Origin: a virus
Taxonomy: Duplodnaviria > Heunggongvirae > Uroviricota > Caudoviricetes
IMG/VR virus record: IMGVR_UViG_2778261058_000011
Location: 1 to 7,517 of that record
Length of the DNA: 7,517 nt
Strand: one strand, 5' to 3'
Positions 2,100-4,293 of the stretch are shown piece after piece. Each line of letters opens with the position of its first letter. Position 1 is the stretch's first letter. The notes beneath the pieces are model-generated. The model had not been told where the DNA came from, made no database searches, and saw only the letters and a list, made by a program, of their open reading frames with translations. Both the position numbers and the translations under genes were made by a program.

Positions 2100-3245
2100 T
2101 TACTTGCCAGCCTGAATTTCCAGAATCTTGATGGCGTTCGAATCCACCACACCACCGCCCAGATATTTCTGGGTATAGATGTTAATGAATCCGGGTTCGC
2201 TGAAATCCGGACGGGTACGCGTACCGGTTTCATGGTCAACGATGAAATAACCGCGCTTAAAGTCACCTACTGCAATCACACCGTCCGGCATAAATTCCAG
2301 ATATTCAACCGGAAGCCCCAGCAGAGAATCAGGATCACCAGCCTGTAAACGATCGCGCCAGATGTAATCACCAGTGGCATTTTTCAGTTTTTGTGCGGAG
2401 GCGGCTGTATTTGAGTTCATCACCCATACAGCTTTTTTGCGGTACTTATTGCGTAACGTAAATTTCAGGTCAATCAGCATGTCGGCGCTGAGACTGCCAG
2501 TCACTTTTTTCGCCTGGAGCGTACCGAAAGGACGGGTTTTGTCATTGTCCGCAGTGCGCGGGAAAGCCAGGAAACCTTTAGCTTTTTTCTCGCCGTCACC
2601 GGAAACCAGATCCGTTTCTTCGGTATCAACGAAAGTGTCGCCAATTTCAGAAGATAACCAGCTCATAATATCGACTTCGGAAAAATCGATAATTTCCTGA
2701 GTGGTTTTCGGGTAAGCGTAGATCGGATACAGGCGGATACTGACTTCATTCAGTTTTGGTGTTGCCGTCTGGTTACGTGCCGCACCTTCTTCGCCGTGTT
2801 CAACGACCGCCCCCCCGGCAGAAACCAGTTGCTTAAATTCATTGCTGTGAATGGTTTTAACGGTACAGATTTTACGCATCACCGATTCATCAGAAAGCTG
2901 ACGCATAATTTCTCTGTTCAGTTCCGGGATAACCGTATAACCACCATCAGCCGGGACACTGCCGGACAGGTTGCGGGTTTCCCCGGTCAGAATGTAAGAG
3001 CGCAGTTCATCTTTGGTGATTTTCTCTTCGACGGAAACACCTGGCTGGTTACGCTCTTCATCCGCAACAGCTTCAAGACGGGAGATTTCTGTGTCGAGGG
3101 AATCGGCTTTTGCACGCAGTTCATCAAACTGTTTGCCCTCGTCATCGGTCAGACTGCGGTTTTCACTGTCGGCTTTTTCCAGCAGGGATCGCATCTGGTT
3201 TTTCAGGGCGGTTTTTTGCTGGCGGAGTTCGATTAATTTCTTCAT
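2100..3245 (-). CDS. major capsid protein (HK97 fold) with N-terminal scaffold-like coiled-coil domain
   Basis: 381 aa from the ATG at 3243-3245. The first ~100 residues are charged and heptad-like (MKKLIELRQQKTALKNQMRSLLEKADSE...), as in the delta domain of HK97-type capsid proteins. The remainder is a ~280-aa body of typical size, and protease, portal and connector genes follow directly. Confidence 0.88.
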   Translation of the reverse strand: MKKLIELRQQKTALKNQMRSLLEKADSENRSLTDDEGKQFDELRAKADSLDTEISRLEAVADEERNQPGVSVEEKITKDELRSYILTGETRNLSGSVPADGGYTVIPELNREIMRQLSDESVMRKICTVKTIHSNEFKQLVSAGGAVVEHGEEGAARNQTATPKLNEVSIRLYPIYAYPKTTQEIIDFSEVDIMSWLSSEIGDTFVDTEETDLVSGDGEKKAKGFLAFPRTADNDKTRPFGTLQAKKVTGSLSADMLIDLKFTLRNKYRKKAVWVMNSNTAASAQKLKNATGDYIWRDRLQAGDPDSLLGLPVEYLEFMPDGVIAVGDFKRGYFIVDHETGTRTRPDFSEPGFINIYTQKYLGGGVVDSNAIKILEIQAGK

Positions 3246-3313
3246 GAAGGTTTTCTCGTATTGGTTAAGATTCAGGACGTGAAACCAACACGGAGGGAGC
3301 GCCGCCCGACACT

Positions 3314-3342
3314 CCCGGCATCTCGCAGATCAACCCGGCATC
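3314..3342. repeat. direct repeat pair (2 x CCCGGCATC) in the capsid-operon leader
   Basis: CCCGGCATC occurs at 3314-3322 and 3334-3342 (plus-strand notation), 20 bp start-to-start, inside the GC-rich untranslated region between the predicted promoter and the capsid ATG. Confidence 0.4.
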
Positions 3343-3394
3343 GCGCAGGGGGTCAGGCGGCATTGTGGCGGCTCACGTCTGAGTGCCACACGCC

Positions 3395-3422
3395 AACATA
3401 TACATAAAAATCAGTATGTAAA
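3395..3422 (-). promoter_or_regulatory. candidate sigma70-type promoter for the head operon
   Basis: On the minus strand: TTTACA (3422-3417), a 16-nt spacer, then TATGTT (3400-3395). This sits in the AT-rich part of the intergenic region, just downstream of the upstream unit's terminator. A TACATA-N8-TATGTA inverted repeat (3401-3420) lies within the spacer. Hexamers are predicted by eye only. Confidence 0.3.
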
Positions 3423-3439
3423 CATCAGCCAGAATCACC

Positions 3440-3466
3440 GAACAACCTGGAACAACCACGAACAAA
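3440..3466 (-). promoter_or_regulatory. three helically phased direct repeats upstream of the candidate head promoter
   Basis: Plus-strand GAACAAC (3440-3446), GAACAAC (3450-3456) and GAACAAA (3460-3466), at exactly 10-bp spacing. On the minus strand they read TTTGTTC / GTTGTTC / GTTGTTC and end 18 bp upstream of the proposed -35. Confidence 0.3.
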
Positions 3467-3481
3467 TAATTTACAAAACCT

Positions 3482-3510
3482 GAAAAAAAGACCTGGAAAA
3501 AATCCAGGCC
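3482..3510 (-). terminator. intrinsic terminator ending the replication/accessory unit
   Basis: On the minus-strand RNA, about 10 nt after the 82-aa ORF stop: GGCCUGGA-UUUUU-UCCAGGUC (8-bp stem, one G-U pair) followed by UUUUUUU. Confidence 0.6.
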
Positions 3511-3519
3511 TTTATCGCT

Positions 3520-3768
3520 TTATTGTTTCACTGGATCCCGCATTCTGCGTCTTATTTTCCACAGATATTCGATCATCGCTTCCACCTGCTCACGGTTGGT
3601 TGCGAAAATTTCCCCGGTCAGTGAGCTGCGCAGAAAATCATGATGATCCACAACAAACAACGCATCGGAAGAAAGCAGACGGCGATATTTTTTTGCTGTC
3701 GTGGTTTCCAGATCATCAAAACCATGAAACTTTTTATGTTGCTGAACTTCTTCAAATGTCACTGGCAT
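3520..3768 (-). CDS. hypothetical protein (82 aa), last gene before the terminator
   Basis: ATG at 3766-3768 with a strong AAGGGGGA RBS 4-10 nt upstream. The start overlaps the stop of the upstream 89-aa ORF by 8 nt. No recognisable motif; basic C-terminus (WKIRRRMRDPVKQ). Confidence 0.55.
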   Translation of the reverse strand: MPVTFEEVQQHKKFHGFDDLETTTAKKYRRLLSSDALFVVDHHDFLRSSLTGEIFATNREQVEAMIEYLWKIRRRMRDPVKQ

Positions 3769-4028
3769 GTATCCCCCTTTGCTGCCCGGCGCTGGCGCTT
3801 GTGCTTCTCATTCAGCGCCATCAGCCGCGTTTCAGCCTCCTGCCGCTCCTGTGGTGTCACTTCCCCACATGGCTGGCCTTTCAGGTCGTAACGTGCACCA
3901 CCAGCCATCAGGGCGCGGTAATAGCGCGGAGACTGCGCATAAGATGCCAGCGTCGCACGTAATGCCCCTGGCCCGAATGCCAGCCCCCTGACGGCGATAT
4001 CCTGCATCAGGTCGTCGAATATCCCCAC
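3759..4028 (-). CDS. hypothetical protein (89 aa, or 82 aa if the ATG at 4005-4007 is used)
   Basis: The track ORF begins at a GTG (4026-4028); the first ATG is at 4005-4007. RBS context is weak for both. It is in register with the flanking genes and coupled to the 82-aa ORF. No recognisable motif. Confidence 0.4.
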   Translation of the reverse strand: MGIFDDLMQDIAVRGLAFGPGALRATLASYAQSPRYYRALMAGGARYDLKGQPCGEVTPQERQEAETRLMALNEKHKRQRRAAKGDTCQ

Positions 4029-4062
4029 CTTCAGCGGCTTCGGTGCTTCCCGGCTGAATAAG

Positions 4063-4293
4063 TCAGTCAGGCCACAACTCAGTAAGGCGGTTAACGCGCC
4101 TGCGGTTTTTTCGCTGCCGTTTGGTCATATGCCGCCACGGTGTCGCCCCTGTGGGCTTCTGCTGTGCGTTCTGATTGCCGGGTATCACTTTATGCGCCGA
4201 TGTGGTTTTATCCTGCTGCTGTGCCGCCTGCGTCGTTTCTGACTGCGTGCCGTAAATGCCTTTCGGTTTTCGGTTAATGGTCAGCTTTGTCAT
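4063..4293 (-). CDS. hypothetical small protein (76 aa), Gln/Thr-rich with basic C-terminal tail
   Basis: ATG at 4291-4293 with a GGGGAAGG RBS 1-8 nt upstream. Low-complexity middle (TQAAQQQDKTTSAHK...NAQQKPTG) and an arginine-rich tail (KRQRKNRRRVNR). Could be a disordered nucleic-acid-binding protein; function unknown. Confidence 0.45.
   Translation of the reverse strand: MTKLTINRKPKGIYGTQSETTQAAQQQDKTTSAHKVIPGNQNAQQKPTGATPWRHMTKRQRKNRRRVNRLTELWPD

What the first reader, a model, noticed from the sequence alone, without database searches (positions are those of the whole stretch)
3395..3466. Head-operon promoter preceded by three 10-bp-phased GAACAA(C) repeats
Three near-identical heptamers at exact 10-bp periodicity sit on one face of the helix, ending 18 bp upstream of a plausible -35/-10 pair. 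That is the geometry expected for an activator-dependent promoter, for example a helper-induced or element-encoded late activator. An inverted repeat TACATA-N8-TATGTA in the promoter spacer could be an operator. This would be the switch that turns on capsid production.
Basis: seen in the sequence. Interest (0 to 1): 0.5.

Follow-up and report, generated by a model that had tools for sequence, protein, structure and literature searches.

The report
Capsid-operon promoter of a phage satellite
This is the promoter in front of the capsid genes of an E. coli phage satellite that builds its own capsids, and it carries an upstream control block that is conserved across many related satellites; what binds that block is still unknown.

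Summary
On the minus strand, three exact TTGTTC hexamers sit 10 bp apart (3465..3440). They lie 17 bp upstream of a sigma-70-like promoter: TTTACA, a 16-bp spacer, then TATGTT (3422..3395). An exact triple like this arose in 0 of 1000 simulated windows.

The window belongs to a capsid-forming PICI (cf-PICI). The promoter lies between a terminator hairpin and the HK97-type capsid gene.

Across 38 distinct related promoters, a TGTAAAT box stays 89-90 bp from the start of the 5'UTR in 34 of them. The -10 (TATnTT) is also invariant, while the flanking sequence is unrelated. The box-plus-TGTYC pattern is almost confined to this position: 35 hits here against 1 elsewhere in 1.37 Mb.

In some E. coli relatives the same TTGTTC arrays also flank the attachment-site core and lie between int and alpA. 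This points to an excisionase-type protein (AlpA) that binds repeats head to tail.

The promoter repeats nevertheless persist with very different AlpA and integrase types, so a factor common to all these islands is about equally likely.

The proposed TACATA-N8-TATGTA operator is at chance level and is not conserved. A helper-phage activator is not required, because published work shows capsids forming without a helper.

Verdict: a conserved, probably regulated promoter of a known kind, with the regulator unresolved.

The parts
3520..3768 (-). Last gene before the packaging module: 82-aa protein of unknown function (phrog_1957)
   Evidence: ORF list. PHROG hit at 1.6e-36. The gene in this position differs between related islands: this family is seen in 19 of about 80 loci.
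3481..3515 (-). Terminator-like hairpin (GGCCUGGA-U5-UCCAGGUC) followed by U7, closing the upstream operon
   Evidence: Inverted repeat I1. RNA fold of -16.8 kcal/mol followed by a U-run. The EcCIEDL933 type has an equivalent hairpin at the same place. The simple terminator scan did not flag the one in the window.
3469..3476 (-). TTGTAAAT box: the most conserved upstream element of the head promoter, also a degenerate fourth repeat 11 bp upstream of the first TTGTTC
   Evidence: The TGTAA core is identical in 38 of 38 distinct related promoters. The box lies 89-90 bp from the UTR anchor in 34 of 38. The box-plus-TGTYC pattern is found 35 times upstream of capsid genes and once elsewhere in 1.37 Mb.
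3440..3465 (-). Three exact TTGTTC repeats at 10-bp spacing (3465..3460, 3455..3450, 3445..3440), centred near -74.5, -64.5 and -54.5 from the predicted start
   Evidence: The 39-bp block including the spacers matches the EcCIEDL933-type island at 38 of 39 positions although both flanks diverge.
3417..3422 (-). -35 hexamer TTTACA (5 of 6 matches to TTGACA)
   Evidence: Promoter scan. Its TTT is invariant across 38 related promoters. About half of those lineages have TTTAC here; the others have the T-run of a GC hairpin.
3395..3400 (-). -10 hexamer TATGTT (family consensus TATnTT)
   Evidence: Promoter scan. T, A, T, T and T are 97-100% conserved in 38 distinct promoters at a fixed distance from the UTR anchor.
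3401..3420 (.). Inverted repeat TACATA-N8-TATGTA in the promoter spacer. Judged not to be a functional operator.
   Evidence: Present (I11), at chance level, and not conserved in other lineages. Its right arm is simply part of the conserved ATGTATAT sequence around the -10.
3386..3390 (-). Predicted transcription start (about 3388), inferred only from the -10 position
   Evidence: Inference. Similarity between lineages with different promoters resumes exactly here, at GTGGCAC.
3364..3390 (-). 5'-terminal RNA hairpin of the leader (GUGGC-A-CUCA-GACG-UGAG-CC-GCCAC)
   Evidence: Folding. RNAalifold consensus, with three inner-stem pairs changed on both sides between the window type and the EcCIEDL933 type, and the GACG loop invariant.
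3246..3363 (-). Rest of the structured 5'UTR: long hairpin 2 (about 3361..3301), hairpin 3 (about 3294..3254), then the ribosome-binding region
   Evidence: MFE -60.5 kcal/mol, z = -3.46. The EcCIEDL933 type has the same three-hairpin layout, z = -4.69. No Rfam family matched.
2100..3245 (-). Major capsid protein gene (HK97 type), first gene of the packaging operon
   Evidence: Pfam Phage_capsid at 1.1e-60, phrog_10 at 4e-86. Followed by the prohead protease and portal genes.

Best explanation
The region is the sigma-70-type promoter of the capsid/packaging operon of a capsid-forming phage-inducible chromosomal island (cf-PICI).

Shown:
- A terminator hairpin ends the upstream accessory/replication genes.
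- Next comes a conserved 40-bp control block: a TTGTAAAT box plus three TTGTTC units one helical turn apart, centred about -85 to -54.
- Then come a TTTACA -35, a TATGTT -10 and a roughly 140-nt leader that folds into three hairpins before the capsid start codon.

Inferred:
- The block is the docking site for several copies of one DNA-binding protein, lined up head to tail on one face of the helix.
- That protein bends the DNA and helps, or gates, RNA polymerase at the adjacent promoter.
- The best single candidate is the island's AlpA-family winged-helix protein, which acts as both excisionase and transcription regulator. In related E. coli islands the same TTGTTC arrays flank the attachment-site core next to presumed integrase arm sites and fill the int-alpA gap. 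That is the pattern known for excisionases that also regulate transcription (P2 Cox, 186 Apl, P4 Vis).

My probabilities: about 0.75 that this is a promoter with a functional upstream protein-binding module; about 0.35 that the protein is AlpA.
For: Gene context: capsid, protease and portal lie downstream; RepA helicase, SSB and a ProQ/FinO gene lie upstream. Relatives are complete cf-PICIs with int and alpA.

Promoter: it is the only consensus match in the region. The -10 TATnTT and the TTT of the -35 are invariant in 38 distinct related promoters.

Repeats:
- They exceed chance.
- The block alone is what megablast matches between the window type and the EcCIEDL933 type.
- The box sits at a fixed 89-90 bp from the UTR anchor in 34 of 38 promoters even though the intervening sequence is unrelated.
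- The box pattern is specific to this position, 35 hits against 1.

Link to the recombination module:
- In L003, which is 98.6% identical to the window over this region, TTGTTC arrays occur at both att arms, in the int-alpA gap and at the head promoter (14 matches against 2.6 expected, 0 of 100 shuffles).
- EcCIEDL933-type islands show the same pattern.
- The gap array changes with the AlpA recognition helix: TTGTTC with LSRSCRY, AATATC with VCRTTRY.
- The paired 12-mers in the arms change with the integrase clade (PMC10111431 section 19).

Protein family: AlpA is PF05930 and PHROG 'excisionase and transcriptional regulator'.

Literature:
- Excisionase-type proteins bind head to tail to direct repeats one turn apart, and often also regulate promoters (PMC7498355).
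- AlpA activates PICI genes and is required for EcCIEDL933 induction (PMC6092414; bioRxiv 10.1101/2022.09.08.507074).
Against: - No binding or transcript data exist for this promoter. The start site is only predicted.
- The head-promoter repeats do not covary with AlpA. They are unchanged in islands with a type-1 AlpA, a type-2 AlpA (57-59% identical, with AATATC gap arrays) or the 92/94-aa AlpA class.
- The TGTAAAT box persists even in an island whose regulator is a distant HTH_17-type protein.
- In L136, the window's closest full-length relative, the head promoter holds the only TTGTTC array in the island.
- Type-2 islands keep TTGTTC arrays in their att arms.
- Outside E. coli-type lineages only the first two units are conserved.
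- The -35 here matches consensus at 5 of 6 positions, and capsids are reported without helper induction. The promoter may therefore not need an activator.
Confidence: 0.55

Rival explanations
1. The block is a real upstream regulatory site, but its protein is one common to all these islands rather than the variable AlpA. It could be a host DNA-binding protein, for example a response regulator of the OmpR/PhoB/ArcA kind that binds direct repeats 10-11 bp apart, or a nucleoid protein. It could also be an uncharacterised product of the conserved packaging module itself.
For: - The TGTAA core is invariant and fixed in position across 38 promoters, while AlpA recognition helices, integrases, replication genes and the upstream gene all vary.
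- The block begins exactly at the boundary of the conserved packaging module.
- The box pattern is not found near alpA or the att sites in the diverse set.
- Tail-less capsids form without a helper phage (10.1101/2025.02.11.637232).
- The packaging module encodes small proteins of unknown function, phrog_3173 and phrog_1561.
Against: - No known E. coli regulator consensus that I could recall fits well. ArcA, PhoP, CpxR, TorR and OmpR gave only partial matches, compared from memory and not with matrices.
- In type-1 islands the identical TTGTTC unit fills the int-alpA gap and the att arms, which points to an element-encoded recombination or regulatory protein.
Confidence: 0.3
2. The repeats have no regulatory role. 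They are a relic or a recombination junction at the edge of the packaging module, carried along with a constitutive promoter.
For: - The block sits exactly at a module boundary where flanks are swapped.
- The spacer bases between hexamers are also identical between the two E. coli lineages. That could reflect recent exchange rather than selection.
- The -35 and -10 are good enough for basal transcription.
Against: - The box is invariant and held at a fixed distance from the -10 in lineages whose capsids are only 63-78% identical and whose intervening sequence is unrelated.
- Natural variants keep the 10-bp register (L014, L005, L013).
Confidence: 0.1
3. The repeats are the target of a late-gene activator encoded by the helper phage, so that capsid genes switch on only during helper infection.
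For: Helper phages do induce alpA expression (PMC6092414).
Against: - cf-PICI capsids are reported at high level in a strain with no prophage (10.1101/2025.02.11.637232 section 8).
- The block is constant across islands from many hosts that must use different helpers.
- There is no TGT-N12-ACA site of the P2 Ogr / P4 Delta type (read directly).
- No similar sequence was found upstream of head genes in 50,697 phage records, apart from entries that look like satellites.
Confidence: 0.05
4. The repeats serve DNA transactions rather than transcription: either integrase arm-type sites, or a terminase small-subunit recognition site (cosB-like) at the start of the packaging module.
For: - TTGTTC arrays lie in both att arms of related islands.
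- Terminase small subunits also bind phased repeats (general knowledge).
- cf-PICIs package from cos sites (10.1101/2025.02.11.637232 section 6).
Against: - The head-promoter repeats persist with integrases only 39% identical, whose att arms lack such arrays.
- The arms hold about ten units, too many for an integrase tetramer, and separate paired 12-mers covary with the integrase clade (PMC10111431).
- In HK97-type systems cos lies next to terS, which is 4-5 kb away here (general knowledge).
- The strict spacing to the -10 argues for a link to the promoter.
Confidence: 0.05

Closest known systems
Operators of dual-function excisionases (P2 Cox at P4 PLL and attP; 186 Apl at pR-pL and attP; P4 Vis; lambda Xis X1-X1.5-X2)
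   Same: - Three or four direct repeats one helical turn apart.
- In related islands the same unit occurs at the attachment site, next to presumed integrase arm sites, and at promoters.
- An AlpA/Vis-family winged-helix protein is encoded by the element.
- Cox activating the satellite P4 late promoter from upstream boxes is a direct precedent (PMC7498355 and its references).
   Different: - No binding has been shown here.
- The promoter repeats do not covary with the AlpA type.
- In the window's nearest relative there are no matching arrays at att.
- Here the target is a capsid operon on a satellite that builds its own capsids.
Pseudomonas aeruginosa AlpA antitermination at PalpB/PPA0807
   Same: A regulator of the AlpA family. 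The promoter is followed by a structured leader. In the EcCIEDL933-type relative a hairpin plus U8 sits directly before the capsid start codon.
   Different: - There the binding element (GGGACG-N5-GGTA) lies between -35 and -10 (PMC7969949). Here the repeats lie upstream of the -35 and the spacer is not conserved.
- The window-type leader has no U-run terminator.
Promoters controlled by OmpR/PhoB-family response regulators (ompF/ompC, pho boxes, torC boxes)
   Same: Contiguous direct repeats with a 10-11 bp period, spanning about -90 to -45 upstream of a sigma-70 promoter.
   Different: The sequence matches to known boxes are only partial, and I judged them from memory. The same units occur at att sites of related islands, which is not expected for a host response regulator.
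Doubled attP motif of helper-embedded PICIs (tgTGTATTGCantgTGTATTGCa; Tommasini et al. 2023)
   Same: Found in the same group of islands. I see the equivalent doubled 12-mers (GGTGTAGTTAAT x2, GGTGTATCAC x2) in both att arms of relatives, next to the TTGTTC arrays.
   Different: It is a different motif that covaries with the integrase clade, and it is absent from the head promoter.

Membership tests
Sigma-70 promoter | -35 and -10 hexamers with 16-18 bp spacing, placed upstream of the operon | tested here: met
   TTTACA, 16 nt, TATGTT; 9 of 12 matches; the only hit in 700 bp. The elements are conserved in register in 38 related promoters.
Sigma-70 promoter | Transcription start mapped at the predicted position | not testable with these tools
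   No transcript data are available. The start near 3388 is inferred from the -10.
Excisionase (RDF)-type operator array | [quoted passage not shown] | tested here: met
   Three exact TTGTTC at 10 bp, plus TTGTAA 11 bp upstream.
Excisionase (RDF)-type operator array | The same repeat unit at the element's attachment site | tested here: inconclusive
   Met in L003, L007, L008 and L135. Not met in L136, the window's closest full-length relative, nor in L014. The window itself contains no att site.
Excisionase (RDF)-type operator array | The repeat sequence covaries with the cognate AlpA protein | tested here: not met
   The int-alpA gap arrays do covary (TTGTTC against AATATC). The head-promoter repeats stay TTGTTC with AlpA types 1, 2 and 92/94-aa, and the box persists with an HTH_17-type regulator.
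Excisionase (RDF)-type operator array | Demonstrated cooperative binding and bending by the protein | not testable with these tools
   Needs gel shift or footprinting.
Activator-dependent (class I) promoter | Weak core promoter that needs an upstream-bound activator | tested here: inconclusive
   In the window the -35 matches at 5 of 6 positions. In about half of the related lineages the -35 position is a T-run (TTTTCT) after a GC hairpin. The repeat centres (-54.5, -64.5, -74.5) rest on a predicted start.
P. aeruginosa AlpA-type antitermination | AlpA binding element between -35 and -10 | tested here: not met
   The spacer differs completely between lineages and contains no GGGACG-N5-GGTA (PMC7969949).
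P. aeruginosa AlpA-type antitermination | Intrinsic terminator between the promoter and the first gene | tested here: inconclusive
   The EcCIEDL933-type leader ends in GUCCUGG-N16-CCAGGAC plus U8. The window-type leader has hairpins but no U-run, and the scan found no terminator.
P2 Ogr / P4 Delta-dependent late promoter | TGT-N12-ACA dyad centred near -55 | tested here: not met
   None of the TGT triplets in 3440-3476 is followed by ACA after 12 nt (read directly).
Capsid-forming PICI (context of the finding) | Island with int and alpA plus its own capsid, protease, portal, connector, HNH, terS and terL genes, and no tail or lysis genes | tested here: met
   The window holds replication genes plus capsid, protease and portal. 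Near-identical complete islands show the full set. The EcCIEDL933-type prototype has the same layout (bioRxiv 10.1101/2022.09.08.507074).
Known RNA family for the leader | Match to an Rfam covariance model | tested here: not met
   No match at E <= 1 over the whole window.

The most novel reading that the evidence does not exclude
The capsid operon of capsid-forming satellites may be switched by the same protein-DNA code that assembles the excision complex. In this reading an AlpA-type excisionase forms a filament on TTGTTC repeats at the att arms, at its own promoter and at the capsid promoter, so that leaving the chromosome and building capsids are mechanically coupled. The conserved 5'-terminal leader hairpin would add a second, RNA-level checkpoint (antitermination, stability, or binding by a ProQ/FinO-type protein). 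Swapping this promoter block between islands would then explain how packaging modules move among islands with different integrases.
Probability: 0.25. Interest if true: 0.6.

Novelty: new member of a known kind. Interest (0 to 1): 0.45.

Why it matters
Capsid-forming PICIs spread between species by releasing tail-less capsids. The papers I could read describe their proteins and structures but say nothing about how the packaging operon is transcribed: two of them contain no occurrence of the word 'promoter'.

This work gives a defined, conserved 40-bp control block, a predicted start site and a conserved leader hairpin. Together these make the question of what turns on satellite capsid production directly testable.

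The block would also serve as a compact sequence signature for the start of the packaging module when annotating such islands. The element itself is a conventional type of bacterial promoter architecture, so the interest is moderate.

Tried and rejected
- Rfam scan of the whole window: no match.
- Scan of one genome per species with a two-sequence capsid alignment: only 5 loci, because the peptide patterns were too narrow.
- Spacer inverted repeat as an operator: rejected, at chance level and not conserved.
- Integrase arm sites as the meaning of the promoter repeats: rejected, because the repeats persist with integrases only 39% identical whose arms lack them.
- A ribbon-helix-helix YlcI/YnfO-like protein as the binder: rejected, because EcCIEDL933-type islands lack that gene yet have every array.
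- The 82-aa upstream protein or PerC as a universal activator: rejected, because the upstream gene varies.
- Replication iterons: rejected, because the repeats are the same with three different replication proteins.
- Ogr/Delta-type site: absent.
- Phage origin of the promoter: no informative match in the phage collection.
- PDB: one AlpA-family structure (8c3t), with no paper found that describes its DNA site.
- An early idea that alpA overexpression alone yields capsids: withdrawn, because that published protocol also induces a prophage with mitomycin C.
- Comparisons with ArcA, PhoP, CpxR, TorR, OmpR, CRP, FNR, IHF, TyrR and H-NS consensus sites: done from memory only, none convincing.

Full report
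**What the window is.** All credible genes run on the minus strand. In order they are:
- a DUF4222 protein;
- a RepA-type helicase;
- a hypothetical protein;
- SSB;
- a ProQ/FinO-domain gene;
- an 82-aa protein (phrog_1957);
- a 274-bp gap;
- an HK97-type major capsid protein, a prohead protease and a portal protein.

Near-identical E. coli loci show the whole element. It runs from integrase and a 62-94-aa AlpA-family regulator, through replication genes, to capsid, protease, portal, head closure, connector, HNH, terS and terL, with no tail or lysis genes. This is the published layout of capsid-forming PICIs, whose prototype is EcCIEDL933 (bioRxiv 10.1101/2022.09.08.507074). The finding lies in the gap just upstream of the capsid gene.

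**Checking the observation.**
- GAACAA occurs at 3440, 3450 and 3460 on the + strand. In the direction of transcription these are three TTGTTC units one helical turn apart.
- The hexamer is not over-represented in the window. An exact phased triple arose in 0 of 1000 simulated windows, and an unbiased finder of phased repeats returned only this array.
- The consensus scan gives a single promoter-like site: TTTACA 3422..3417, a 16-nt spacer, TATGTT 3400..3395. The gap from the last repeat to the -35 is 17 bp rather than 18.
- The TACATA-N8-TATGTA inverted repeat exists. About a third of random sequences of this composition contain an equivalent one.

**Anatomy.**
- Upstream of the block, the 82-aa gene is followed by a hairpin of -16.8 kcal/mol and a U7 run. 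The packaging operon is therefore insulated and needs its own promoter.
- Taking the start at about 3388, the repeats are centred near -54.5, -64.5 and -74.5. A degenerate fourth unit, TTGTAA, is centred near -85.5.
- The leader of about 140 nt folds into three hairpins (z = -3.46).

**Comparison within E. coli.**
- A megablast of 800 bp around the site matched 514 of 5,426 complete genomes.
- Among the hits sampled, many, including O157:H7, matched only window positions 3440-3497. That is the repeats and their immediate upstream neighbour.
- In those EcCIEDL933-type islands the 39-bp block TTTTGTAAATTATTTGTTCGTGGTTGTTCCA(C/G)GTTGTTC is identical at 38 of 39 positions. The sequence on both sides differs, and the capsids are only about 64-69% identical.
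- A -35 (TTTACC) and a -10 (TATTCT) are still present with 16-nt spacing, shifted 2 bp relative to the block.
- Other variants keep the promoter and leader but have a degenerate middle repeat (L014) or a partly diverged array (L013).

**Comparison across 80 more distant islands.**
- These came from viral contigs and have capsids 69-78% identical to the Symbiopectobacterium capsid used as the search query.
- They yield 38 distinct promoter sequences that share the leader anchor G(G/A)CACTC.
- The TGTAA core of the box is identical in all 38. The box lies 89-90 bp from the anchor in 34 of them.
- The -10 is TATnTT with 97-100% conservation, and the TTT of the -35 is invariant.
- The sequence between box and -10 falls into two classes: a TTTAC-type -35 as in the window, or a GC-rich hairpin whose T-run occupies the -35 position.
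- The pattern TGTAA(A/G)T-N2-4-TGT(T/C/G)C was found 35 times upstream of capsid genes and once elsewhere in 1.37 Mb.
- Outside the E. coli lineages only the first two units are conserved. Units three and four are of a CATGYTT type.
- A strictly positioned, location-specific, conserved element next to a conserved core promoter is what a cis-regulatory site looks like.

**The same repeats elsewhere in related islands.**
- In L003 (98.6% identical to the window here), TTGTTC arrays at 10-bp phase occur in four clusters. Two are in the attachment-site arms, one is an inverted six-unit array between int and alpA, and one is at the head promoter. The count is 14 matches against 2.6 expected, reached by 0 of 100 shuffles.
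- EcCIEDL933-type islands show the same pattern.
- Each att arm also carries a doubled 12-mer, GGTGTAGTTAAT. In islands with a different integrase clade (39-47% identical) this changes to TGTGTATTGCA or GGTGTATCAC. The TGTGTATTGCA form is the doubled motif already described for helper-embedded PICIs (PMC10111431, section 19). I read the doubled 12-mers as integrase arm sites.
- About ten phased TTGTTC units per attachment site, placed next to those 12-mers, fit the general picture of excisionase-type proteins. These bind head to tail to repeats one turn apart, bend DNA, recognise sequence loosely and often also regulate promoters (PMC7498355).
- The islands' only protein of that kind is AlpA (PF05930; PHROG 'excisionase and transcriptional regulator'). 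AlpA is known to activate PICI genes and to be required for EcCIEDL933 induction (PMC6092414; 10.1101/2022.09.08.507074).

**Why the regulator is still unresolved.** Covariation gives mixed signals.
- The int-alpA gap array follows the AlpA type. It is TTGTTC with recognition helix LSRSCRY in 11 loci and AATATC with VCRTTRY in 4 loci. Other motifs appear in more distant islands. This suggests that the gap arrays are AlpA sites and that AlpA specificity varies.
- Type-2 islands nevertheless keep TTGTTC arrays in their att arms.
- The head-promoter repeats are unchanged in islands with type-1, type-2 or 92/94-aa AlpA proteins.
- The TGTAAAT box persists in an island whose regulator is a distant HTH_17-type protein.
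- In L136, the window's closest full-length relative (97% identity), the head promoter holds the only TTGTTC array in the island.
- So either AlpA-family proteins share a loose preference for TTGT-type units, which is plausible for this class, or the head-promoter block is read by a factor common to all these islands. That factor could come from the host or from the packaging module.
- The gene immediately upstream is variable, so it cannot be a universal activator.

**Helper dependence.** Published experiments report tail-less cf-PICI capsids produced at high level in a strain with no prophage (10.1101/2025.02.11.637232, section 8). A helper-encoded late activator is therefore not required. 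Together with the 5-of-6 match at the -35, this also leaves open that the promoter has substantial basal activity and that the block modulates it rather than switches it.

**The leader.**
- The window type and the EcCIEDL933 type share the three-hairpin layout.
- The first hairpin starts within a few bases of the predicted 5' end. It keeps its GACG loop while three inner-stem pairs differ on both sides: CUCA/UGAG against CCAG/CUGG. There are only two lineages, so this amounts to few independent events.
- In the EcCIEDL933 type the third hairpin is followed by U8 directly before the start codon and contains the AGGA of the ribosome-binding site.
- No Rfam family matches.
- This hints at a second layer of control at the RNA level, which I did not pursue.

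**Comparison with known systems.**
- The architecture works like the operators of dual-function excisionases. P2 Cox activating the satellite P4 late promoter is the closest precedent.
- It also resembles promoters controlled by response regulators that bind tandem repeats.
- It does not meet the defining features of Pseudomonas AlpA antitermination, since there is no element in the spacer, or of Ogr/Delta-dependent late promoters, since there is no TGT-N12-ACA.
- I found no description of this promoter in the cf-PICI papers available to me.
- I therefore file it as a new member of a known kind: a conserved, probably regulated sigma-70 promoter with helically phased upstream repeats, whose regulator remains to be identified.

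Noticed in passing
window 3246-3390 (minus strand); L007 15198-15368: The capsid leader folds into three hairpins in both E. coli lineages (z = -3.5 and -4.7). The 5'-terminal hairpin keeps a GACG loop while three stem pairs differ on both sides between lineages. No Rfam match.
   Followed up: partly
L007 15320-15365 (EcCIEDL933-type island): A hairpin, GUCCUGG-N16-CCAGGAC, followed by U8 sits directly before the capsid AUG and contains the AGGA of the ribosome-binding site. It looks like a terminator or translational trap. The window-type leader has a hairpin here but no U-run.
   Followed up: partly
window 3759-4293 (minus strand): The ProQ/FinO-domain gene appears frameshifted in the window. 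Only the C-terminal 89 aa are in frame (97% identical to residues 92-180 of the 180-aa protein in L136). The N-terminal half reads in another frame with stops.
   Followed up: partly
L003 4840-4905 and 19395-19560; L007 7420-7545 and 22700-22775; L135 15740-15880 and 26020-26075: Reconstructed attachment sites of related PICIs carry, on both arms, a TTGTTC array of 3-4 units followed by a doubled 12-mer, GGTGTAGTTAAT. The 12-mer changes with the integrase clade (TGTGTATTGCA in L014, GGTGTATCAC in L136).
   Followed up: yes
L100 1291-1318; L135 17192-17219; L072 863-890; L102 12679-12705: Islands with a type-2 AlpA (recognition helix VCRTTRY) have three AATATC units at 10-bp spacing between int and alpA, where type-1 islands have six TTGTTC units. 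Their att arms still carry TTGTTC arrays. No explanation so far accounts for both facts.
   Followed up: partly
L007 21990-22420; L135 25150-25500; L136 4840-5900 (reverse strand): The region between the last island gene and attR holds several dispersed copies of a roughly 30-bp repeat (GGCGCGGTAACTGGTTGATATTTTCG...), some followed by short palindromes. Function unknown.
   Followed up: no
L015, L017, L019, L026, L028, L034, L040, L043 and at least 10 more viral contigs: An unrelated, widespread family of viral contigs carries four or five GTTGTTCC units at 10-bp spacing followed by one inverted copy (GGAACAAC), just after the end of a gene. No close AlpA homologue was found on these contigs.
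   Followed up: no
L145, L147, L148, L153, L164 and others, 40-60 bp upstream of the -10: In about half of the distant cf-PICI lineages a GC-rich hairpin with a T-run lies between the conserved box and the -10, with its T-run at the -35 position. In these the terminator-like element sits downstream of the box, not upstream as in the window.
   Followed up: partly
L014 and L032 (island inside a prophage terL gene): These helper-embedded islands carry two AlpA-family genes: a 73-aa one overlapping the end of int, and a 92-aa one whose recognition helix (LSRSRRW) resembles type-1 AlpA. This suggests separate excision and activation paralogues.
   Followed up: no
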